Counted from the first letter of the stretch, positions 465 through 12,115 are shown. The stretch is DNA of 64,000 nucleotides from a virus (IMGVR_UViG_3300031994_000039:48507-112506), one strand, 5' to 3'. Notes: a model not told the origin generated them from the letters alone. Translations and numbers: made by a program.

Positions 465-470
465 CAATAA

Positions 471-542
471 CAAGAGCCCCAGGAATCGAACCCAGTCTAT
501 CTGTCTTGACAACAGATGTGCTATCCTTTACACTATGCTCTT
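471..542 (-). tRNA. atypical tRNA, nominal anticodon UCA (G33)
   Basis: AAGAGCA-TA-GTGT AAAGGATA GCAC-A-TCTGT TGTCAAG ACAGA-TAGA-CTGGG TTCGATT CCTGG-GGCTCTT-G. Confidence 0.65.
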
Positions 543-724
543 GAAGCATATACTATGTGTGGTCAACAACATGGTAGTGAAAACCCGGCATTAAAGGGGA
601 TGCCGGGGAAACTTTAAATGGAGGTTTGAAAGTATGCACAACACCGAAATTTAATATGCTTTTGAAAAGGAGAGTAACTTATGAATAAAAATACCACCAC
701 ACATAGCCTTATATTAGATAATGA

Positions 725-3767: not shown

Positions 3768-4934
3768 TTATAAAGTTTTCAAGTCATTCTTAATTGACTC
3801 AGCTATATTCAAGCCGACCTTCTGACTCATCTTGTCAACTATTTTCTGAATGGCTTCCTTTTCGACCATCGAGAAGTAATTACGATACCCTTCGAGCACT
3901 TGAATGTCATTCAACGACCAGTCCTTTCCGTTCTTTTTGTCCATGCCGTATGAATACAACATTGCGGTGAACTTTTTCTTGTTCTTATATCCGACTGTAA
4001 TCTGATTGTCCTTATTAAGCATTACGCCAAGATTCCAGTTTGAACCTGCAGAAGAACCATACCTTGTCTTCTTTCTATTAAGCTCGAACGGAGCTCCGAA
4101 TTCCTGAAGAACCTTTACTATTTCGTCCTCAATCATCTTGTAACTGAAGTCTATCTTACATGATATGATGAAGTCATCCGCATATCTTGTATACACAAAC
4201 TTCCTGTTATCATAATCCCTGAACATATTAAACAGCTTGTAGTCAATTGGGATCATCATGATGTTTGTTATTAGTGGGCTGATCGGAGTTCCTTGAGGAA
4301 GCCCGCCGTTTAAGAACGCAAGGCTGATTGCCTGCTCGAAATATTTCTTTCCTTCCGGAACCGCAAGAACTCTGGAAAACGGAAAAATCATACTGAACAT
4401 CTTTGTCACGAATTCCGGAGTTGTGCTTCCAAAGAAGTTATGAAGGTCGAACTTTGCAAACCACTTACTTTCATTACCCTGATGTCTCTTTACTGCATCC
4501 AGTGTGCTTCTGCCTTTTATATATGCAAATGCTGATGTATGATACATCGCACCAAATCCATCCTCGAAGATGAACTTAAGTTCCCGAAGCGCCTCCATAA
4601 GTCTCGGCTTAGGTGCATCGATTCTACGAAGGCCGCCGGATCTCTTCGGAATGTGGAATGATCTATAAAGTTCCGCTCTATCCACTTCAAAGAGATCCTT
4701 GTACTTCTCGTTAAAGCACCACAATTCATTAATGAGTGACTGAATATTCAAACTGCCGAATATCTTTTCAGCATTTCTGGATAAGTATGTTCGTGTGTTT
4801 GTATTCCTGCCGTCCTTGCGTGTATAGTTTTTATATCTTTCGTTCCATTCATTATCTGGTAACGAAAAGAAATCGTCCAGAGATAGCTGAACTGTTTTCT
4901 TATTAAGAACAACTACTACATACTCATTGTACAT
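3768..4934 (-). CDS. retron-type reverse transcriptase (388 aa)
   Basis: Start MYNEY at 4934 behind AGGAGG; motifs IPKRSGGLRRIDAP, AFAY, DAVKRH (NAxxH-like retron region X), FDLHNFFGS, GLPQGTPISP, YTRYADD, WNLGV (region Y, VTG-like); no fused maturase or nuclease domain. Confidence 0.92.
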   Translation of the reverse strand: MYNEYVVVVLNKKTVQLSLDDFFSLPDNEWNERYKNYTRKDGRNTNTRTYLSRNAEKIFGSLNIQSLINELWCFNEKYKDLFEVDRAELYRSFHIPKRSGGLRRIDAPKPRLMEALRELKFIFEDGFGAMYHTSAFAYIKGRSTLDAVKRHQGNESKWFAKFDLHNFFGSTTPEFVTKMFSMIFPFSRVLAVPEGKKYFEQAISLAFLNGGLPQGTPISPLITNIMMIPIDYKLFNMFRDYDNRKFVYTRYADDFIISCKIDFSYKMIEDEIVKVLQEFGAPFELNRKKTRYGSSAGSNWNLGVMLNKDNQITVGYKNKKKFTAMLYSYGMDKKNGKDWSLNDIQVLEGYRNYFSMVEKEAIQKIVDKMSQKVGLNIAESIKNDLKTL

Positions 4935-5166: not shown

Positions 5167-6078
5167 TTAGCAATTAACCGTCGTAAATTCTTTCGTGTCT
5201 TTATTGAAGAAGAATATCTCTCCAGAAAGAGTATCCGCTGGTCCGAATATTCTATTTGTTTCCGTTACATTACGCTTAATGCTCGTCGGATCGATGCTTC
5301 CAACCTTGTGAACCATAGCCTCGTGTATACTTGTGAACGCTACGTAGAAGCTATCGCCGTACATTTCTGCAAGCTTTTCCTTAACTCCCGGACAGAACAT
5401 TGCGATCGCTCCGTTTGTTTTCCTGCTGGTTGTGACGAGCGTGACTCTGTTGTTACTAAGTCTTTCCTTGCTTTCGAGAACTTTCTTTCCGCTTCCGTCA
5501 GTTATGTTAAACATGTCTGTGTAGAACATTGGAACCTGATTCTTTACTGTGTTCTCCATTGCAGCCGCGAAGATATCCAAATCCTTCATACCTGTCTGCT
5601 TCTTATATCCTTCGACACATCTCATCGGAACCTTTATTGTGTTCAAGATTCCGTCGCAGTCACTCATAATAAGGTAAAGAACCAGCGCAATATCACCCTT
5701 CTTGCAGTACATGCAAGGTTCTTTTGCATTCTTCTGGATAAATTCCGCACTATAATTCACAGGTCTGATGATTAATTCGTCCTTAATCTTAGTGTAGTCT
5801 TCTATTCTGTCGATCTTATTCATGAATCCACCAGCCCTTTTTCTGATGCTTGTCAAAGCCTCGCCAGTTGCCCTAAGGACAATGTCCCATCCTCTTTCGT
5901 TTACTGACTTCTGTGTATCTGCCAGTCTTACTGCCATTGATACCTCATCGCCGTTCAGTTTTATTCTTGCAACCTCTACATCATTTACACATTCAACGAG
6001 GAATTCCTCATTTGCCTGGATAAGATTGTATTCTTCCATTTTTTCTTTTAATACCTTTGCAAATTCTTTGTTAGTCAT
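5167..6078 (-). CDS. DUF5688-like protein
   Basis: Start MTNKEF behind GGAGG; motifs LIIRPVN, GDIALV, VTTSRKTNGAIAMF, FTSIHEAMV, LSGEIFFF resemble this Firmicutes family. Confidence 0.65.
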   Translation of the reverse strand: MTNKEFAKVLKEKMEEYNLIQANEEFLVECVNDVEVARIKLNGDEVSMAVRLADTQKSVNERGWDIVLRATGEALTSIRKRAGGFMNKIDRIEDYTKIKDELIIRPVNYSAEFIQKNAKEPCMYCKKGDIALVLYLIMSDCDGILNTIKVPMRCVEGYKKQTGMKDLDIFAAAMENTVKNQVPMFYTDMFNITDGSGKKVLESKERLSNNRVTLVTTSRKTNGAIAMFCPGVKEKLAEMYGDSFYVAFTSIHEAMVHKVGSIDPTSIKRNVTETNRIFGPADTLSGEIFFFNKDTKEFTTVNC

Positions 6079-6118
6079 AATCAAAACCTCCAAGTTTAAT
6101 TATCTTACTACCATTGTT

Positions 6119-6398
6119 CGTGTAACCTGATTACCTTTCAGGATCTCAGGGCAGCGGGCGCTGGTGCCACCGGCGCGCGTCAAAGCGATCTTTTATTTGT
6201 TCCTTTGCGGAACAAAAGAACGAAGGTCCACGTATTTGCGTGCTTCCTGAGATCTGTTTCTCTAATCAGGGCGGCTCCAGATCCGGAGATGGCGACTTGA
6301 GTTGTCGCCTCTCCTCCTCCTTCGCCTTATCATGTCGAGCCTTTTAATTACATCAAAAGGTTATTTCATATTGGATATAAAATAATATGCGTTACACA
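6119..6398 (-). ncRNA. retron-like msr-msd ncRNA, copy 1
   Basis: Ends UGUGUAAC(G)...GUUACACG (a1/a2); candidate branch G at 6390; msr stem-loops; msd (+ strand 6126-6270) stems CCTGATTA/TAATCAGG and GATCTCAGG/CCTGAGATC enclosing 3 hairpins. Confidence 0.8.
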
Positions 6399-6436
6399 TT
6401 TTCATGTATTAATAAAAGATAGCGTGATACATAAAT

Positions 6437-6551: not shown

Positions 6552-7214
6552 TTAAAAAGCGTCGATTTCAAAGCTCTTCAGATCAACTAAAACCATCTTC
6601 TTAATTCCTTCGCCCTTTACGAAGTGTATGAAGTTGGTTACTGCGATTGACGATACCACTCTAACAACAGGGCACACGCCCAGTGTAATGCCGCAAGCTG
6701 ATGTGGGAGTTTCTGCCTTCGCTTCTTCATGGCTGAACTGCATTGTAGCCAGAAGATTTTCCCTCATGCTTTTATCTGACCAGTCAGCAGCGTAATGCTG
6801 TGCGTGCTCTAACAAAGTTCTTATGTCGAACACTGCTTTAACCATCGGATTAAGCATATGTTTTTCACAGATTTCTCTGCGGATCTCGATACTGTCTACG
6901 CAAAGGAAGACATATCCTGCAAGAGTTTCACCGTTCCAACCCTTCTTTGTTTTGATCTCGATGTCCGGATTGATGTTCTGGAGAATACCCTTGAGAGCTT
7001 CTGTCTTTTCCTTGCCGACATCTTCTTTCGTGAACATCTGGTTCACGATATTATGTTCCTCTACCTTATCAAAATCCCAGAGAACCATTGACTTTACGCC
7101 ACAGCGGGCGAGGTTTTCTGCGATTGTTGAACCGACAGATCCACATCCGATGATGTGGATGTTGCCGTTTACATTGCTTGGGTTGAAGTATTCGAGTGAT
7201 TTTGATAAATTCAT
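6552..7214 (-). CDS. ThiF/E1-like ubiquitin-like activating enzyme
   Basis: IIGCGSVGS nucleotide-binding loop, DFDKVEEHNIVNQ, CVDS, DIR, candidate catalytic Cys in TSACG; start MNLSK at 7214. Confidence 0.88.
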   Translation of the reverse strand: MNLSKSLEYFNPSNVNGNIHIIGCGSVGSTIAENLARCGVKSMVLWDFDKVEEHNIVNQMFTKEDVGKEKTEALKGILQNINPDIEIKTKKGWNGETLAGYVFLCVDSIEIRREICEKHMLNPMVKAVFDIRTLLEHAQHYAADWSDKSMRENLLATMQFSHEEAKAETPTSACGITLGVCPVVRVVSSIAVTNFIHFVKGEGIKKMVLVDLKSFEIDAF

Positions 7215-7215
7215 A

Positions 7216-7827
7216 TTAACACGCCTCCACAAATAATTCTTCAAGGTTCACCTTTTCTTCTTCAGGTTCTTCTTTGATCTGGACTTCCGTTGTACAGTAC
7301 TCTTCAAATGCCTTCATGAGTTCTTCGGCAAATTCACTTTCCTGTTCTTCTGTAAGAGCTGGTGTCTCAGGTTCAGGTTCCTCTTCCGGAATCTCATAAT
7401 TGTCAACAATTTCATGGATGATGTCCATTATATCTGTTGCTGCTTCCCCTTCTGCGGCAGGTTCTTCTTCCTCCTCAGGGTCATCCTCTTCTTCGGGTTC
7501 ATCTTCCCATTCCTGGTTGTTGTCCATATATGATTTGAGATCGTCTTTATAATCATTGAACTGCCCGTCGTTGTCGTCTGTTCCTCTCCACGTTCCGTCG
7601 TAGTCGTCGTGTATATATCTGTCATACCTGTCACTTGGTATATCATCAACCAAGCTTCTTAAATCTGACAGAGAGTCGCAGTACTTTGCGTCATCGAGAA
7701 TTCTGCTTTCAAATTCGCCGTGCGTATATAAACCGCCTGTGAAAACATCATTAAAATAATCATAATCCCTTGCGCATTGTTCCAGTTCATCATAGGTGGT
7801 GATATCTTCAAACTCTGTTCGTGTCAT
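7216..7827 (-). CDS. highly acidic protein
   Basis: 203 aa, very D/E-rich (DEPEEEDDPEEEEEP), inside the E1/JAB cluster. Confidence 0.75.
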   Translation of the reverse strand: MTRTEFEDITTYDELEQCARDYDYFNDVFTGGLYTHGEFESRILDDAKYCDSLSDLRSLVDDIPSDRYDRYIHDDYDGTWRGTDDNDGQFNDYKDDLKSYMDNNQEWEDEPEEEDDPEEEEEPAAEGEAATDIMDIIHEIVDNYEIPEEEPEPETPALTEEQESEFAEELMKAFEEYCTTEVQIKEEPEEEKVNLEELFVEAC

Positions 7828-7846
7828 ATTTCAGACCCTCCTTACC

Positions 7847-8656
7847 TTACCATCCGCAACCAAATCTTTCGCTCAGCCACGCTTCGTATTCCTCATCTGT
7901 CATGCCAGCGTAGTAGTCACTATATTTTGATTTCTTACCGCCTTTGCCTTTGCCGATAGTCTTTGTGTCGGCTAAGGTACCCTTCAGATTGTAAATCTGT
8001 GTACCTGTGTATCTTGGGAAGTATTCATCAACCACGAGTTCCTTCGCTTTTTCTGCGAACTCCAGGATTTCCTCTTCGACATCGACGAATACCGTAACAT
8101 CATTGTCTTCATAGACTGTGTTACTCTGTTTATCGTAAATGTTTACGTATACGTCTCCTTTTTTATTTGTAACCAAGAAGATATAGAAGTCGTCGTCTCT
8201 GAGCTGATCAACGATTCCTCCGTAATAGGTTTCGTCTACGCTTGAAGGAGTTACGCCCATGTTTACATGGCTGTGCCCCTGCATTCTTAAGTTCTGAAAA
8301 ACCTCGTCTGGCTGTTCGTAGAGCCACATCTGATACTTTTCCTGATCCGTAGTGACAGTTGAACCTGTTACCTTCTGCGGGTAAACTACTATGTCGTCGA
8401 TGACATAATCGCCGTCCTTTACCTTTCTGGCGATGCCGTGCCATGCAACCTCTTTATCAAACTTATCAACCAGTGCTCTCATTTTCTTATCGGCAAGCTG
8501 ACTGATTTCCAGTGAAGCTTTTTTGCCGGTATTCAGTGTGAGTTTCTTGCTGTAGTTGACTGTGTTATTCTTGAAGACTCCGGCTGCGAGAAATTTTAAA
8601 AATTCCTCACGGATCTTTTCAATTTCTGTCTGATCTATATTAAATGCACGACTCAT
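7847..8656 (-). CDS. JAB/JAMM (MPN+) metallopeptidase, deubiquitinase-like
   Basis: Full JAMM motif: E in DKEVAWHG and H-S-H-x7-S-x2-D (HSHVNMGVTPSSVD); start MSRAF at 8656. Confidence 0.88.
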   Translation of the reverse strand: MSRAFNIDQTEIEKIREEFLKFLAAGVFKNNTVNYSKKLTLNTGKKASLEISQLADKKMRALVDKFDKEVAWHGIARKVKDGDYVIDDIVVYPQKVTGSTVTTDQEKYQMWLYEQPDEVFQNLRMQGHSHVNMGVTPSSVDETYYGGIVDQLRDDDFYIFLVTNKKGDVYVNIYDKQSNTVYEDNDVTVFVDVEEEILEFAEKAKELVVDEYFPRYTGTQIYNLKGTLADTKTIGKGKGGKKSKYSDYYAGMTDEEYEAWLSERFGCGW

Positions 8657-8660
8657 ATGA

Positions 8661-10064
8661 TTAACCTTCCTTTCTAAGTTCCTCAAGAACTTCATTGAGT
8701 GTGTAGCTGTTTCCGTTTAATTCAAAAGCTCTCTTGTTTGTTCTTGTTATGCGAGTTGTAAACTCTTCCATAACGGTGCTGTCTGCGAAGTTCAATGAAC
8801 GAACTGACATTCCGCAGAGACTGAGACACTGGATTGTATCGCCCGCCTTGAGCGCATCGACCATCATCATTTCATAGTCACCTAAACAGTGGTAACGGTC
8901 GATATGTGTATTCGGGAAGTAATCCTGAACTTCTGGAATGTAGCTTGCGTCTGCTATTCCAGTCACTCTGAACTCGCTTATCTTTATTCTGTAAGCTGCA
9001 ACACTCTTGAGCTTCACACTATGTTCTACGAAGATCGCATTGAAGAGTTTTTCTGTGTCCTCTCTGCTGATGTTTGAATAATCGTAAATAATACTATCGT
9101 AATTATCTACAAATTCCTCAGCTGTATCCGAATCAAATACATCAAGATATCCAGTAGCAAAAAACTCGATTGAGTCGCCGCTGCATGAATTGAATACGAG
9201 ATTTTTATTTGCCTTGAAGAAGTCGAGAATTTCGTTACTTTCATTCTTCACAACATTTCTTAATCCATCAATAATGATGTTCTTATCTCTTATCTTTATG
9301 AGCAGATTCGAAATTTCCTCACGCTTCATAGCTATCGTCTGTTCCAGTGATGAGATTTCGTTCTTGTGATATTCTAACTTATTCTTTGCAAAGCGAGTCT
9401 CAATTCCTGAAAGTGCTGCTTCCATTTTCCTTTCCCGGATGCCCTTGATAGCTGCGATGTTTGCGATTGCCTTTAAGAAAGGTTCTACGTTAGTCTTGCT
9501 GAGAGTTTCAAGGAACTCTGTTTCCTCTTTGGTGATAGGCTTTTCCTTGAAGAACCACGGCAGATATACCGGAGTTCCCATTAATACATAACGTTCTGTT
9601 TCAAGAGACATATTTTCTATCGGCTTATAGATTACGATTGTCCGCTTGCCGCATGTGAAACATGTTACCTCAGTTCTGCTAAAGAACTTTCTAACCTTCG
9701 CAGTTTCAACCCATTCCGGGCTCTTTTCCTTAACTCCCTCGCTGAGTTCGTCAAACCACTTTGTATCCGATCTCTTTACAGATATCAGCCATAAATCCTC
9801 ATCACACTTTTCTGTGTCGAATGTGAGTAATCTGTTGTGTAATTCATCGTATGATGAATCATACATGCCAGCGTTTCTGGTTATTTCGTTATACCTGATT
9901 TTGAATGGCGCGTCGTCTTCGACCCTGTCGATTAATAACGCTCTTACAACCATATTGAATACTACGTCTGTACTATAATTCCATTCGATCTTATAGATCT
10001 TCTTATCATCTTCGTCTTCGTTGTAACTGAAGGCAGTTGATGCTGGGATTCTTCCGTTGAACAT
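8661..10064 (-). CDS. coiled-coil protein with putative C-terminal E2/UBC-like domain
   Basis: Central heptad coiled coil; C-terminal FPNTHIDRYHCLGDY resembles the prokaryotic E2 PxxH...CLG active site; lies between Ubl and JAB. Confidence 0.6.
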   Translation of the reverse strand: MFNGRIPASTAFSYNEDEDDKKIYKIEWNYSTDVVFNMVVRALLIDRVEDDAPFKIRYNEITRNAGMYDSSYDELHNRLLTFDTEKCDEDLWLISVKRSDTKWFDELSEGVKEKSPEWVETAKVRKFFSRTEVTCFTCGKRTIVIYKPIENMSLETERYVLMGTPVYLPWFFKEKPITKEETEFLETLSKTNVEPFLKAIANIAAIKGIRERKMEAALSGIETRFAKNKLEYHKNEISSLEQTIAMKREEISNLLIKIRDKNIIIDGLRNVVKNESNEILDFFKANKNLVFNSCSGDSIEFFATGYLDVFDSDTAEEFVDNYDSIIYDYSNISREDTEKLFNAIFVEHSVKLKSVAAYRIKISEFRVTGIADASYIPEVQDYFPNTHIDRYHCLGDYEMMMVDALKAGDTIQCLSLCGMSVRSLNFADSTVMEEFTTRITRTNKRAFELNGNSYTLNEVLEELRKEG

Positions 10065-10124
10065 TTAAAAATTCCTCCTTAGAAAGATTGGCGGGGTGTT
10101 GTGTTCCCCGCCTTTTGGTTTTGG

Positions 10125-10437
10125 TTTGTGTAACCTAATTAGAAGTTGATCCTGATGAAGGATGAGTTCTGGGCTACTCAACCAGGTGAACTTCTATTAC
10201 GATGACCTTTTTCCTGATCTGCGGGCTGCGCAATCTTGGGGCTTCCTGAACATATTTCTGCTTGGATGTTGATTGAGCTTTTAATTTTTTTTTTTAGTAT
10301 GTTTTAATCAGATAAAACAGTACCCAGCTCGTGTCCAGATACCTCCTTCCGGCGGAGGTGCCTCCTTTCCCTTAACAATGCGATCCATTCACTGACAGTA
10401 AATGGTTGTTTTAAAAAAACAAAATGCGTTACACAAA
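10125..10437 (-). ncRNA. retron-like msr-msd ncRNA, copy 2
   Basis: 10-bp a1/a2 TTTGTGTAAC/GTTACACAAA; candidate branch G at 10427; same msr layout as copy 1; msd stem TAGAAGTT/AACTTCTA enclosing 2 hairpins. Confidence 0.8.
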
Positions 10438-10466
10438 AATCAAATACTAGTTTTATTCAGCAGAAA

Positions 10467-10694
10467 TTAAGCGTTGTCTGCTTTAACCACCTGTAAGAGG
10501 TAGCATTTATCAGTAACGCCGTAGTCTGCAAAGGTCTTATTGAAATCCGCACTGCCTACGACGCTGCCGTTGAGTGTGATTCCGCCTGCGGCAACATTGA
10601 GATTTGCCTGTTCTGCGGCTTCGAGAATTGTAGTGCTTGGGTCAAGAACTAATTCTGTTTTATTGAGTGATGTTCCGCTTATTACCTTAATCAT
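10467..10694 (-). CDS. ubiquitin-like (beta-grasp) protein B, 75 aa
   Basis: KTFADYGV resembles ubiquitin RTLSDYNI; ends VVKADNA; AGGAGG RBS. Confidence 0.8.
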   Translation of the reverse strand: MIKVISGTSLNKTELVLDPSTTILEAAEQANLNVAAGGITLNGSVVGSADFNKTFADYGVTDKCYLLQVVKADNA

Positions 10695-10778
10695 GGTTAA
10701 ATTCCTCCTTAATTTACAGGGGCGAGGCAAATGCCCAGCCCCGACTTACCTGTTATTTATGAATTGTGAAGAATGTTA

Positions 10779-11159
10779 TCACATAATTGTGATGCTATCC
10801 ATTGCTGTGCTGAGTGCGTTCTTGGCAGCTTCGATCTTTTCCGGAGCAGTTGCCTCGAATGCGTTCATTTTAGCAAGAGCCTTGCCATACTTTTCAGCAA
10901 TGAACCCCTTGATCTTATCCGGTTCAAGATCGCCGACAGAAACTGAAGTGCTTGCGTAGCCGCTTGCATCAGTCTTATCGAAGGTGATTCCGTATGTTCC
11001 GATTGAGCCTGTGGTTCCTGTTGCAACCTTAAAATCAATTTCCTTTTCCTCGTTCTTAACGACGAGTGCTTCAGGTGTTACTGTTGCAAGTGTTTCGAGA
11101 TCTGCTGTGAGAATTGTGCTTGTGAAAACTGCGATGCCTGAGATTACTGTTACCTTCAT
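10779..11159 (-). CDS. 126-aa hypothetical protein, paralog B
   Basis: Tandem paralog of 11245-11625 (shared GTYGITFDKTDASG, KYGKA). Confidence 0.85.
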   Translation of the reverse strand: MKVTVISGIAVFTSTILTADLETLATVTPEALVVKNEEKEIDFKVATGTTGSIGTYGITFDKTDASGYASTSVSVGDLEPDKIKGFIAEKYGKALAKMNAFEATAPEKIEAAKNALSTAMDSITIM

Positions 11160-11244
11160 TTAGATTTCCTCCTTAAAATTACAGGGGCGAGATTAAGAAA
11201 CCCCGCCCCACTTACGTGAATGAATGTTTGTTTCCGCTGAGCGA

Positions 11245-11625
11245 TTACATAATTGTGATGTTGTTCATTGCTGTTTCAAGAGCTGACTTAGCAAGTGCGA
11301 TACGCTCTGGTGCAACCTCTTCAAAAGAGTTCATCTTTGCGATTGCCTTGCCATATTTAGTGGCAATGAATTCCTTCACCTTGTCTGCCGGAATGTTACC
11401 GATTTCAACAGATGTTGAAGCGAAGCCGCTTGCGTCTGTCTTGTCGAAGGTGATTCCGTAGGTACCAACTGAGCCCTTTGAGCCTGTGTCAACCACAAAC
11501 TCAATTTCTTTTTCTTCGTTCTTGGCGATGAGCACTTCCGGAGTTACCTTCTTGAGTGTTTCCAGATCAGACATGAGAACTGCACTTGTGAAAACCGCGA
11601 TTCCGCTGATTACAGTAATTTTCAT
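11245..11625 (-). CDS. 126-aa hypothetical protein, paralog A
   Basis: Tandem paralog of 10779-11159; AGGAGG RBS. Confidence 0.85.
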   Translation of the reverse strand: MKITVISGIAVFTSAVLMSDLETLKKVTPEVLIAKNEEKEIEFVVDTGSKGSVGTYGITFDKTDASGFASTSVEIGNIPADKVKEFIATKYGKAIAKMNSFEEVAPERIALAKSALETAMNNITIM

Positions 11626-11788
11626 TTTAAATTCCTCCTAGAATTTTCTTACTTGTGTTTTGAGAGATGTGAAATTGTGTGTCTATTATGTTAAACTCCT
11701 AAACGGTTGGGTTGAATTCCGCAAGCCCGAAATTGGGGGCGATAACCGTTCCGCTTAGGAGGTAACATCAGATTGTTTTTCCAGTAGC

Positions 11789-12016
11789 TTAAGCGTTGTC
11801 TGCCTTAACTACCTGGAGTAAGTAACATTTATCTGTTACTCCGTAGTCGTTGAAAGTCTTGTTGAAATCCCCACCGGAAACCATTGAGCCGTTGAGTGTG
11901 ATTCCGCCCGCAGGAACGTTGAGTCCTGCCTGCTCTGCAGCTTCCATGAGTGTTGTTGATGGGTCGATAACGAGTTCTGTCTTGTTGAGTGATGTTCCTG
12001 AGATTACCTTGATCAT
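11789..12016 (-). CDS. ubiquitin-like (beta-grasp) protein A, 75 aa
   Basis: 65/75 identical to 10467-10694; ends VVKADNA. Confidence 0.8.
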   Translation of the reverse strand: MIKVISGTSLNKTELVIDPSTTLMEAAEQAGLNVPAGGITLNGSMVSGGDFNKTFNDYGVTDKCYLLQVVKADNA

Positions 12017-12086: not shown

Positions 12087-12115
12087 ACTATATCACAGCG
12101 TTGTCTGTTTGTCAA
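12087..12115 (-). promoter_or_regulatory. sigmaA/70 promoter heading the Ubl-E2-JAB-E1-RT cluster
   Basis: TTGACA-17 bp-TATAGT with extended -10 TG. Confidence 0.8.

What the first reader, a model, noticed from the sequence alone, without database searches (positions are those of the whole stretch)
6552..12016. Phage-encoded ubiquitin-like conjugation set (2 Ubl, E2-like, JAB, E1)
Seen: co-directional Ubl-A, X-A, X-B, Ubl-B, coiled-coil/E2-like (HIDRYHCLG), JAB with an intact JAMM motif, an acidic protein and ThiF/E1, all behind one sigmaA promoter. Established: E1+E2+JAB+Ubl sets occur in bacterial anti-phage systems (Bil, CBASS Cap2/Cap3) and in PRTRC cassettes of mobile elements. No thiamine or molybdopterin biosynthesis genes are present. 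Inference: the phage conjugates its own Ubl to host or phage targets, for counter-defence, host takeover or phage-phage competition. The E2 call is the weakest link.
Basis: partly seen in the sequence, partly recalled or inferred. Interest (0 to 1): 0.82.

Follow-up and report, generated by a model that had tools for sequence, protein, structure and literature searches.

The report
Phage ubiquitin-like tagging operon plus retron
A 112-kb gut phage, and all its near-complete relatives examined, carries a ubiquitin-like protein-tagging kit (tag, partner protein, E2-like protein, trimming protease, activating enzyme) made of unannotated protein families and sitting beside a retron, a pairing I found in no paper.

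Summary
Eight co-directional minus-strand genes at 6552-12016 sit behind one near-consensus sigma-70 promoter.

What each part is:
- **E1:** a minimal ThiF/E1, closest to UBA5, with an invariant loop Cys.
- **JAB:** the full JAMM motif is kept, and it matches PADLOC and RPN11 profiles.
- **Ubl:** the two 75-aa proteins are beta-grasp Ubls (TM 0.62-0.70 to MoaD and ubiquitin).
- **Ubl tail:** the invariant tail K-A/T-D-N-A sometimes carries 1-2 extra residues. It is fused in frame to protein X in two lineages and is K-A-D-G-G-C(C) in a third.
- **E2-like:** the C-terminal domain of the 467-aa protein (pLDDT 93) matches almost only UBC/RWD-superfold chains, but weakly (Z 3.3-5.3). It has an invariant P-N-x-H-x5-C-x-G. 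No sequence profile detects it.

Gene order is Ubl-E2-DUB-E1, as in Bil operons. Membership of Bil, CBASS or PRTRC is not met.

- The cassette is a core, fast-evolving block of one lineage of about 105-137-kb gut phages.
- It lies next to a retron-type RT, and a copy of the conserved ncRNA element sits inside this operon.

Conjugation chemistry and biological role are untested. This scan has reported the same cassette-plus-retron on other DNA (at least 15 genomes). No paper searched describes it.

The parts
12087..12115 (-). sigma-70/sigmaA-type promoter-like site (TTGACA, 17-nt spacer with TG, TATAGT) upstream of Ubl-A
   Evidence: 11 of 12 consensus matches; pattern match only
11789..12016 (-). 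Ubl-A, a 75-aa beta-grasp ubiquitin-like protein ending ...VVKADNA
   Evidence: Atlas structure search gives MoaD/ThiS TM 0.69 and ubiquitin families TM 0.62-0.70. The tail K[A/T]DNA is invariant in 22 aligned relatives.
11245..11625 (-). X-A, a 126-aa partner protein of unknown fold
   Evidence: Always next to the Ubl. Fused to the Ubl C-terminus in L001 and L007. No Pfam, PHROG or Atlas match. Near-invariant K26 and P29.
10779..11159 (-). X-B, paralogue of X-A (71% identical)
10467..10694 (-). Ubl-B, paralogue of Ubl-A (87% identical), same KADNA end
10343..10452 (-). ncRNA-like element (two-hairpin scaffold shared with the RNA found next to the RT in related phages) inside the operon
   Evidence: A covariance model built only from other loci hits here at 32.7 bits, E 6e-4. 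Found at this site only in the window and L006 among the loci searched.
9420..10064 (-). N-terminal alpha/beta domain of the 467-aa protein (residues 1-215), function unknown
   Evidence: Weak but consistent resemblance to the MoaB/MogA/gephyrin fold: Z 4-5, 110-128 residues aligned. Occurs as a stand-alone paralogue in L023, L024 and L026.
9246..9404 (-). long single helix (residues 221-273), probable coiled-coil dimerisation element
   Evidence: AlphaFold model; only coiled-coil matches
8664..9242 (-). E2-like UBC/RWD-superfold domain (residues 275-467). Invariant P384 N385 H387 C393 G395; the Cys codon is at 8886-8888.
   Evidence: Model pLDDT 93, pTM 0.87. VIA-align: only 137 of 48,161 chains reach Z>=2, and the top 50 are almost all E2 enzymes or RWD/UEV-type domains. 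Residues invariant over 22 members at 22-35% identity.
7847..8656 (-). JAB/JAMM metalloprotease (269 aa) with a basic then Tyr/Asp-rich tail. Motif HSHVNMGVTPSSVD at 8234-8275; Glu at 8450-8452.
   Evidence: Motif invariant in relatives. RPN11 profile alignment places the Glu, HxH and SxxD correctly. PADLOC JAB 6.8e-5.
7216..7827 (-). acidic 203-aa protein, an accessory member of the block
   Evidence: Present in most loci, absent or displaced in others. No family match.
6552..7214 (-). minimal E1 (ThiF fold, 220 aa). GCGSVG at 7131-7148; invariant Cys in ETPxSAC at 6693-6695.
   Evidence: Pfam ThiF 2.4e-25. PADLOC E1 part of CBASS E1-E2 7e-20. Best solved relatives: UBA5 4.9e-16, then UBA1/UBA6, MoeB, ThiF. 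Invariant residues.
6298..6415 (-). second ncRNA-like element, between the E1 and DUF5688/RT
   Evidence: Covariance model hit at 26.7 bits, E 0.012. Every related locus has at least 294 nt of non-coding sequence between the E1 and the RT.
3768..4934 (-). retron-type reverse transcriptase (outside the given coordinates, same strand)
   Evidence: RVT_1 8.8e-18. PADLOC RT_II-A 2.2e-46. An RT lies within 3.6 kb downstream of the E1 in 29 of 30 loci with at least 3 kb of downstream sequence.

Best explanation
The operon encodes a self-contained ubiquitin-like conjugation pathway.

**Proposed steps (all inferred).**
1. The JAB protease trims Ubl precursors, whether they carry 1-2 extra residues or are Ubl-X fusions. 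This exposes the tail ...K-A-D-N-A (or ...K-A-D-G-G in one branch).
2. The dimeric minimal E1 adenylates that carboxylate.
3. The E1 probably holds the Ubl on its invariant crossover-loop Cys, as UBA5 does.
4. The Ubl passes to the invariant Cys393 of the E2-like domain of the 467-aa protein.
5. That protein's coiled coil and N-terminal domain would choose the target.
6. JAB can also reverse the conjugates.

Protein X is made 1:1 with the Ubl. It is either the main acceptor (at its N-terminus or at near-invariant Lys26) or an obligate partner.

**Shown.**
- Fold and family of the E1, the JAB and the Ubl.
- Tail conservation and the gene fusions.
- UBC/RWD-type fold and invariant motif of the E2-like domain.
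- Gene order and distribution.

**Likely role.** The block is core to the lineage. Its E2-like and X proteins evolve much faster than the portal. It lies beside a retron. So I judge a role in conflict with the host or with other phages most likely (about 0.45). A role in the phage's own development is about 0.3.
For: - **E1.** Pfam ThiF 2.4e-25. UBA5, UBA1 and UBA6 rank above MoeB and ThiF. GCGSVG, D57, D59, K80, D117 and R122 are invariant. So is a Cys in ETPxSAC, just before the helix that HMMER aligns (second, non-significant stretch) to UBA5's SLPTTMGVV helix.
- **Ubl.** The Atlas model matches MoaD/ThiS (TM 0.69) and ubiquitin families (TM 0.62-0.70) over 66-72 of 75 residues. The KxDNA end is invariant, with optional +A, +R, +T or +AA. 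In L023, L024 and L026 the end is KAD-GG-C(C). Ubl-X fusions join exactly at DNA|A. L001 has the Ubl only as a fusion, so cleavage is needed before any E1 action.
- **Ala precedent.** An Ala C-terminus is conjugated by a Cap2-type E1 in CBASS (PMC10097602).
- **JAB.** Glu, HxH and Sx2D are invariant. RPN11 alignment. PADLOC JAB 6.8e-5.
- **E2-like.** The domain model has pLDDT 93. The top 50 structural matches are nearly all E2s (UBE2F Z 4.5 with 111 aligned, Pex4, UbcH10, Ubc13, bacterial BilB 8tyz_C Z 4.0 at 16% identity) or RWD domains (Z up to 5.3). P384, N385, H387, C393 and G395 are invariant at 22-35% identity. The N-to-C spacing of 8 equals that of HPN...C in UbcH5 (from memory).
- **Only candidate.** The phage record has no other E2 family.
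- **Gene order.** Ubl-E2-DUB-E1, as in Bil and 6C operons.
- **Synteny and spread.** Synteny is kept in 33 related loci. 16 of 17 portal-selected contigs of 89 kb or more carry the cassette; the exception ends just past its RT gene.
Against: - No sequence profile (Pfam, NCBIfam, PADLOC, PDB sequences) recognises an E2 in the 467-aa protein.
- Foldseek finds nothing.
- The VIA Z scores of 3.3-5.3 lie below the level at which a single match would be trusted. RWD domains, which are non-catalytic, score as high as E2s.
- The Arg of the E1 motif NLxRQ is Asn in all 14 E1s aligned, so adenylation activity is not certain.
- An Asn-Ala end is unusual for a Ubl.
- No target, E3 or conjugate is known.
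- All evidence is computational.
Confidence: 0.62

Rival explanations
1. A sulfur-carrier or cofactor-type pathway rather than protein tagging. A MoaD/ThiS-like carrier is adenylated by a MoeB/ThiF-like enzyme and trimmed by a JAMM protease, as with CysO/Mec+ or QbsE/QbsD. It then works with X as its partner enzyme, the way MoaD works with MoaE. The MogA/MoaB-like N-domain would handle a nucleotide or pterin-like substrate.
For: - The best named structural match of the Ubl is the molybdopterin synthase small subunit, TM 0.69.
- The N-domain of the 467-aa protein resembles the MoaB/MogA/gephyrin fold at Z 4-5 with 110-128 residues aligned.
- 1:1 Ubl-X pairing and gene fusions recall MoaD-MoaE.
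- JAMM trimming of sulfur carriers is established (own knowledge).
Against: - hhalign of the X profile against a MoaE profile gives probability 0.16%.
- X has no conserved Cys or His and few invariant polar residues.
- The phage record has no rhodanese.
- MoaE occurs in only 4 of 81 sampled Bacillota genomes and not in the lysogen-like MAG G035.
- The Asn-Ala end is not the Gly-Gly that sulfur carriers need to reach their partner's active site (own knowledge).
- An invariant Cys in a UBC/RWD-fold domain has no role in such pathways.
- The E2-like protein and X diverge much faster than the portal, unlike metabolic enzymes.
Confidence: 0.12
2. An E1, Ubl and JAB system without a true E2. The UBC/RWD-like domain would be a non-catalytic scaffold, as RWD and UEV domains are. 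The activated Ubl would be transferred directly from the E1, for example onto X, onto the RT, or onto the retron's RNA-DNA product.
For: - RWD domains score as high as E2 enzymes in the fold search (Z 5.1-5.3 against 4.5 or less).
- No E2 sequence family matches.
- CBASS variants with an E1-only Cap2 exist (PMC10097602).
- ncRNA copies lie inside and beside the operon.
- The JAB tail is strongly basic and could bind nucleic acid (inference).
Against: - P-N-x-H-x5-C-x-G is invariant over 22 members at 22-35% identity. It sits after the fourth strand, where E2s carry HPN...Cys. Such conservation is hard to explain for a scaffold.
- The gene order matches Ubl-E2-DUB-E1.
Confidence: 0.13
3. The Ubl operon and the retron are independent modules that sit side by side only because all carriers descend from one phage ancestor with conserved gene order.
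For: - All carriers share a portal 59-72% identical, so they are one lineage.
- The spacing between the E1 and the RT varies from 0.3 to 3.6 kb, and unrelated genes are inserted there (DUF5688, MazE-like).
- One locus (L033) has no RT within 5.9 kb of the E1.
Against: - Same strand and adjacency hold in 29 of 30 informative loci, despite 22-35% identity of the E2-like protein.
- An ncRNA copy lies inside the Ubl operon in the window and in L006.
- Earlier notes of this scan report RT plus Ubl kits with other architectures in other phages (not checked here).
Confidence: 0.45

Closest known systems
BilABCD (type I/II Bil, 6C/CEHH operons) bacterial ubiquitination-like anti-phage systems
   Same: - Four core roles in the same gene order: Ubl, E2, JAB DUB, E1.
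- The DUB pre-processes a Ubl that carries extra C-terminal residues.
- The bacterial E2 BilB (8tyz_C) is among the structural matches of the E2-like domain: Z 4.0, 16% identity.
   Different: - The E1 here is a 220-aa single adenylation domain with a loop Cys. Bil's E1 is a roughly 500-aa protein with inactive and active adenylation domains and a separate CYS domain.
- The E2-like domain is the C-terminus of a 467-aa three-part protein. It matches no CEHH or Prok-E2 model.
- The Ubl ends in Asn-Ala in most members.
- There is an extra partner X and an acidic protein.
- It is carried as a core block by a phage and lies next to a retron.
Type II CBASS Cap2 (E1-E2) and Cap3 (JAB)
   Same: - The E1 half of Cap2 models is the best defence-library match of the E1, 7e-20, and Cap3-type JAB models match the JAB.
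- A C-terminal Ala is an accepted substrate end there (PMC10097602).
   Different: - No CD-NTase (SMODS) in the phage.
- E1 and E2 are not fused.
- The conjugated protein is a beta-grasp Ubl, not a nucleotidyltransferase.
UBA5-UFM1 type minimal E1 systems
   Same: - UBA5 is the best solved sequence relative, 4.9e-16.
- Both have a single adenylation domain with a Cys in the crossover-loop region just before the following helix. The position of UBA5's catalytic Cys is from memory.
   Different: - Only residues 18-90 align significantly.
- The NLxRQ Arg is Asn here.
- No UFC1-type E2 and no UFM1-type tail.
PRTRC cassette (ParB-related, ThiF-related cassette) of plasmids and integrative elements
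   Same: A ThiF-family protein travels with a small ThiS-like protein and a JAB-like protein on a mobile element (own knowledge).
   Different: - PRTRC_ThiF scores 31.3 bits against a cut-off of 144.75.
- No other PRTRC family scores at E<=1.
- No Prok-E2_D in the phage.
- No ParB gene was seen among the genes examined (not specifically searched).
Retrons (RT, msr-msd ncRNA and accessory effector genes)
   Same: - The neighbouring RT is retron-type, RT_II-A 2.2e-46.
- A conserved two-hairpin non-coding element with compensatory changes lies between the E1 and the RT.
- Accessory genes are co-directional.
   Different: - I recall no retron type with a Ubl, E1, E2 or JAB effector, and the papers searched name none.
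- There are several ncRNA copies per RT.
- It is a lineage-wide block of a phage.
- msDNA production is untested.

Membership tests
BilABCD | beta-grasp Ubl whose C-terminal Gly is exposed by the DUB | tested here: inconclusive
   The beta-grasp is supported. The tail is conserved, with optional extra residues and fusions. The end is Ala in the window and most relatives. It is Gly-Gly only in L023, L024 and L026.
BilABCD | E2 with UBC fold and catalytic Cys (Pfam Metal_CEHH or Prok-E2 models) | tested here: inconclusive
   UBC/RWD-superfold matches at Z 3.3-5.3, including BilB 8tyz_C at Z 4.0. The PN-H...C motif is invariant. No hit to Metal_CEHH, Prok-E2_B, Prok-E2_D or UQ_con.
BilABCD | E1 with inactive and active adenylation domains and a separate CYS domain | tested here: not met
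   The E1 is 220 aa with one ThiF domain.
BilABCD | gene order Ubl-E2-DUB-E1 | tested here: met
JAB/JAMM (MPN+) metalloproteases | Glu ... HxH x7 S xx D zinc site in an MPN fold | tested here: met
   The motif is invariant. The RPN11 profile alignment places all motif residues correctly (E 0.08). PADLOC JAB 6.8e-5. Pfam JAB models do not score, and the fold itself was not modelled.
ThiF/E1 adenylating enzymes | Rossmann GxGxxG, Mg-binding Asp, ATP-binding Arg/Lys set | tested here: inconclusive
   Pfam ThiF at 89.5 bits against a cut-off of 28.1. GCGSVG, D57, D59, K80, D117 and R122 are invariant. The Arg of NLxRQ is Asn in all 14 sequences.
Type II CBASS (Cap2/Cap3) | CD-NTase with conserved Gly/Ala end, and a fused E1-E2 Cap2 | tested here: not met
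   No SMODS family in the phage record. E1 and E2-like are separate genes. NCBIfam cap2_3 scores 63.3 bits against a cut-off of 320.
PRTRC cassette | NCBIfam PRTRC_ThiF, PRTRC proteins A-F and a ParB-family protein | tested here: not met
   PRTRC_ThiF scores 31.3 bits against a cut-off of 144.75. No other PRTRC model hits any of the 8 proteins at E<=1.
Sulfur-carrier systems (MoaD/MoaE/MoeB, ThiS/ThiF, CysO/Mec+) | Gly-Gly carrier end, a partner synthase (MoaE, ThiG or CysM) and a sulfur donor domain | tested here: not met
   The end is Asn-Ala. X against MoaE by hhalign gives 0.16%. No rhodanese. ThiG and CysM were not compared.
Retron | retron-clade RT with an adjacent structured ncRNA that templates msDNA | tested here: inconclusive
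   The RT matches retron models at 2.2e-46. A conserved two-hairpin element shows compensatory changes in 8 of 15 pairs and recurs 1-5 times per locus. No Rfam match. msDNA cannot be tested here.

The most novel reading that the evidence does not exclude
The Ubl kit and the retron form one machine. Either the RT-ncRNA-msDNA complex senses or guides, and the E1/E2-like/JAB set tags a protein in response. Or the Ubl is attached to the RT, to X or to the msDNA itself. That would be a new retron class with a protein-conjugation effector, carried as a core function by a widespread lineage of gut phages.
Probability: 0.3. Interest if true: 0.9.

Novelty: new variant of a known kind. Interest (0 to 1): 0.78.

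Why it matters
Ubiquitin-like conjugation in bacteria has so far been described as a host defence against phages (Bil, type II CBASS, Bub). Here a complete-looking pathway belongs to the virus.

- It was present in 16 of 17 long portal-selected contigs examined, in a lineage whose portal occurs on at least 497 IMG/VR contigs.
- It is built from families that no annotation library names. The E2-like protein's only BFVD relative is 'uncharacterized'.
- It ends in Asn-Ala instead of Gly-Gly.
- It has a minimal UBA5-like E1.

If it is active, it offers:
- a compact, orthogonal tagging system;
- a test of how far E1 and E2 chemistry tolerates non-Gly ends;
- through its fixed neighbour, a possible first link between retrons and protein conjugation.

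The fast divergence of the E2-like and X proteins suggests an arms-race interface worth mapping.

Tried and rejected
- **DNA similarity.** Against 50,697 GenBank phage records: no match. tblastn finds one uncultured faecal phage only, MT835544.1.
- **Foldseek against PDB.** With the full-length model and with the domain model: nothing at E<=0.001.
- **VIA-align on the full-length model.** It was swamped by coiled-coil matches to the 221-273 helix. I therefore spent the second fold job on the C-terminal domain, and neither X nor the Ubl-X fusion was folded.
- **Profile of the 467-aa family against PDB sequences and Pfam.** Only coiled-coil noise.
- **Profile-profile test against real prokaryotic E2 families.** This failed for lack of reference sequences. 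Metal_CEHH and Prok-E2_B were found in 0 of 401 Bacillota genomes each.
- **ESM Atlas for X.** No model and no hit.
- **Pfam for X, the acidic protein and the stand-alone N-domain paralogue.** Nothing.
- **Rfam for the region.** No family.
- **MccB-like peptide-nucleotide idea (C-terminal Asn chemistry).** Rejected. The Asn is penultimate, and it is replaced by Gly-Gly in L023, L024 and L026.
- **The Ubl-to-E2 gap as a universal ncRNA site.** Rejected. The gap is only 67 nt in some loci.
- **A single-protein portal scan.** It gave only close, short contigs. The alignment-based scan was needed.

Full report
**1. What is there**

The region holds eight co-directional minus-strand ORFs:
- Ubl-A (11789-12016)
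- X-A (11245-11625)
- X-B (10779-11159)
- Ubl-B (10467-10694)
- a 467-aa protein (8661-10064)
- a JAB protein (7847-8656)
- an acidic protein (7216-7827)
- a ThiF protein (6552-7214)

Comparison with relatives moves three start codons inward: JAB, ThiF and Ubl-B. With those starts the enzyme genes are separated by a few bases only.

A near-consensus TTGACA-17(TG)-TATAGT site and an AGGAGG precede Ubl-A. Terminator-like hairpins lie between X-A and X-B and in the 400-nt gap before the 467-aa gene. These could give more Ubl and X than enzymes; that is inference.

The window is part of a 112,506-bp IMG/VR virus record rated 95% complete. It carries a portal, a tape-measure protein and minor tail proteins.

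**2. The E1**

Only this protein is recognised by Pfam (ThiF, 2.4e-25), NCBIfam and PHROGs.
- A profile of 14 family members ranks UBA5 first among solved proteins (4.9e-16). UBA1 and UBA6 follow, then MoeB (7.6e-13) and ThiF (1.9e-10).
- In PADLOC it best matches the E1 half of CBASS E1-E2 fusions, 7e-20.
- Invariant residues include GCGSVG, D57, D59, K80, D117, R122 and a Cys in ETPxSAC.
- HMMER's second, co-linear and non-significant stretch aligns the helix right after that Cys with UBA5's [20 protein letters not shown] helix. From memory, UBA5's catalytic Cys250 lies just before that helix. I therefore infer a UBA5-like loop cysteine.
- One oddity: the Arg of the canonical NLxRQ motif is Asn in all 14 sequences.

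**3. The JAB**

- The Glu, HxH and Sx2D residues are invariant among relatives about 40% identical.
- A four-sequence profile aligns to RPN11 with every motif residue in register, E 0.08.
- PADLOC JAB models match at 6.8e-5. Pfam JAB models do not score.
- The family is large: 3,670 representative clusters at E<=1e-3.
- Its C-terminal tail is low-complexity, basic and then Tyr/Asp-rich.

**4. The Ubl**

- The ESM Atlas holds a model of Ubl-A (pTM 0.68).
- Its named structural neighbours are all beta-grasp families: MoaD/ThiS at TM 0.69 and ubiquitin or Rad60-SLD families at TM 0.62-0.70, over 66-72 of 75 residues.

The strongest evidence is the tail.
- K-[A/T]-D-N-A is invariant in 22 aligned relatives. 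All but a few of the 38 Ubl domains in my loci keep it.
- It is sometimes followed by one or two extra residues (A, R, T or AA).
- In L023, L024 and L026 it reads K-A-D-G-G-C(C), the classical di-glycine plus extension.
- In L001 (once) and L007 (twice) the Ubl is fused in frame to X, exactly at DNA|A(S/E)I....
- L001 has no free Ubl gene. So the fusion must be cut before an E1 could act, and JAB is the obvious candidate.
- A C-terminal Ala has precedent. CBASS CD-NTases end in Gly or Ala, and the Ala-ended E. cloacae enzyme is conjugated (PMC10097602).

**5. The E2 call**

The full-length model (pLDDT 84) has three parts: an alpha/beta N-domain, a 53-residue helix and a C-terminal domain. The helix swamped the first fold search, so I modelled residues 275-467 alone (pLDDT 93, pTM 0.87).

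- Foldseek found nothing.
- The exhaustive VIA-align search gave only 137 of 48,161 chains at Z>=2.
- Its top 50 are almost entirely one superfold. They include the RWD domains of the SEA complex and Knl1 (Z 5.3-5.1). They also include the E2 enzymes UBE2F (Z 4.5, 111 aligned), Pex4, UbcH10, Ubc13, E2S, UbcH7, UbcH5 and Ubc9, and the bacterial E2 of the Bil E1-E2-Ubl complex (8tyz_C, Z 4.0, 16% identity).
- Each Z alone is weak. The near-exclusive enrichment is what carries weight.
- The topology is helix, four-strand meander with a helical insert between strands 2 and 3, loop, short helix, then long helices.
- P384, N385, H387, C393 and G395 follow strand 4 and are invariant over 22 members only 22-35% identical.
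- The Asn-to-Cys spacing of eight equals that of HPN...Cys in UbcH5 (from memory).
- No sequence model of any E2 family matches this protein or anything else in the phage.

I conclude that this is a new, highly diverged UBC-superfold family with a plausible catalytic Cys. Catalysis is unproven.

**6. The other parts**

- **N-domain.** Residues 30-186 resemble the MoaB/MogA/gephyrin fold weakly but consistently (Z 4-5). The domain exists as a separate gene in L023, L024 and L026.
- **X.** It has no detectable relatives outside the cassette. It has no conserved Cys or His and a near-invariant Lys26. Its copy number tracks that of the Ubl: 2:2 here, 3:3 in L007, 1:1 in most loci, 1:2 in L004.
- **Acidic protein.** It is dispensable or displaced in about a third of loci.

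**7. Distribution**

- The order X-Ubl-E2like-JAB-(acidic)-E1 is kept in all 33 related loci fetched from Logan, ENA, JGI, IMG/VR and four MAGs.
- All carriers whose record holds the portal region share a portal 59-72% identical to the window's.
- At least 497 IMG/VR contigs encode that portal.
- Of 17 portal-selected contigs of 89 kb or more, 16 carry the cassette. The exception is an 80%-complete fragment that ends a few hundred bases past its RT gene.
- So the cassette is a core block of one lineage of about 105-137-kb phages.
- Three IMG/VR records are classed as provirus, and one copy sits on a 358,930-bp Eubacteriales MAG contig. The phages may therefore be temperate and infect Clostridia-type hosts.

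Identity to the window's proteins across the lineage:

| Protein | Identity |
|---|---|
| portal | 59-72% |
| RT | about 62% |
| E1 | 52-87% |
| JAB | about 40% |
| Ubl | 35-51% in distant members |
| X | 25-33% |
| E2-like | 22-35% |

The recognition-type components evolve fastest.

**8. The retron next door**

- A retron-type RT (PADLOC RT_II-A, 2.2e-46) lies within 3.6 kb downstream of the E1, on the same strand. This holds in 29 of 30 loci with at least 3 kb of downstream sequence.
- The gap between the E1 and the RT is never under 294 nt.
- That gap holds a roughly 70-nt element 71-85% identical between loci whose proteins have diverged far more.
- Eleven copies fold into two adjacent hairpins, and 8 of 15 pairs show changes on both sides.
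- A covariance model built from them finds 1-5 copies per locus, always on the cassette strand.
- In the window it hits 10343-10452 (E 6e-4) and 6298-6415 (E 0.012). The first lies inside the Ubl operon, between Ubl-B and the E2-like gene. The second lies between the E1 and DUF5688.
- Among the loci searched, the first site is used only in the window and in L006. Other loci have as little as 67 nt there.
- Whether the retron and the Ubl kit work together cannot be decided from one lineage. I put it at about 0.3-0.5.

**9. Rivals**

- **Sulfur-carrier reading.** It gains a little from the MoaD-like and MogA-like resemblances. Against it:
  - X is unrelated to MoaE by profile-profile comparison, 0.16%.
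  - The phage record has no rhodanese.
  - MoaE is rare in the host phylum and absent from the lysogen-like MAG.
  - The end is Asn-Ala.
  - The UBC-like domain has an invariant Cys.
- **E2-less reading** (the UBC/RWD domain as a scaffold). It stays open because RWD domains score as well as E2s.
- **Recent capture from the host, or countering a host E2-based system.** Metal_CEHH and Prok-E2_B were not found in 401 sampled Bacillota genomes. That gives no support to either idea.

**10. Known or new**

- Library searches for phage-encoded Ubl, E1 and JAB sets, and for retron plus ubiquitin, returned the Bil, CBASS and Bub papers and retron papers. None describes this cassette.
- The only BFVD homologue of the E2-like domain is an 'Uncharacterized protein'.
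- This scan has already reported the same cassette-plus-retron on other DNA, in at least 15 genomes, with similar conclusions.
- My independent additions:
  - the Gly-Gly-ended branch that anchors the Asn-Ala tail as the activated end;
  - the exact Ubl-X fusion junctions and the 1:1 pairing;
  - the domain-level UBC/RWD fold result;
  - the UBA5-like loop Cys and the missing Arg in the E1;
  - the portal-based test that the block is core to the lineage;
  - the negative MoaE test.

**Verdict.** This is a real, conserved, phage-borne ubiquitin-like conjugation-type operon of new families. It works most like Bil but is not a member of Bil, CBASS or PRTRC. Its chemistry and purpose are untested.

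Noticed in passing
window 10343-10452 (-) and 6298-6415 (-); L001 15015, 16883, 18520; L034 five copies: A conserved two-hairpin non-coding element recurs 1-5 times per locus, always on the cassette/RT strand. This suggests several template RNAs per reverse transcriptase. One copy lies inside the Ubl operon of this phage.
   Followed up: partly
window 470-543 (-): ARAGORN calls a tRNA with anticodon TCA (labelled SeC), next to tRNA-Gln and tRNA-Met. It could be a UGA suppressor. The ORFs examined read through normally under table 11.
   Followed up: no
L023:4236-4898, L024:4689-5336, L026:4679-5338: The Gly-Gly-ended branch carries an extra stand-alone gene. It is homologous to the N-terminal (MoaB/MogA-like) domain of the E2-like protein and sits upstream of X. 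This branch lacks the acidic protein.
   Followed up: partly
window 7847-8050 (-); L001:12100-12458; L003:8650-8914: The JAB proteins end in long low-complexity tails. These are Gly/Tyr-rich, then Lys/Arg-rich, then Tyr/Asp-rich. They may be nucleic-acid or partner binding regions.
   Followed up: no
L015:6074-6295: This Ubl stops two residues early (...VVKAD), unlike all others. In the same locus the E1 is displaced 1.9 kb downstream of the acidic gene.
   Followed up: no
L008-L012, L014, L016, L020 (gap of about 1 kb between Ubl and the E2-like gene): A subgroup has about 990-1,120 nt between the Ubl and the E2-like gene. None of my cassette HMMs covers that stretch, and I did not examine its content.
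   Followed up: no
window 11184-11209 (-) and 10319-10343 (-): Terminator-like hairpins lie between X-A and X-B and before the E2-like gene. They could attenuate transcription, so that Ubl and X outnumber the enzymes.
   Followed up: no
L032 (MAG contig JAUNSG010000001.1, 358,930 bp); G003, G006, G022: One cassette-bearing phage lies on a 359-kb Eubacteriales MAG contig together with its portal. Three IMG/VR relatives are classed as provirus. The lineage may be temperate.
   Followed up: partly
window 5167-6093 (-): A DUF5688 protein sits between the E1/ncRNA and the RT, here and in L006. In L002 and L005 it lies elsewhere. Its function is unknown.
   Followed up: no
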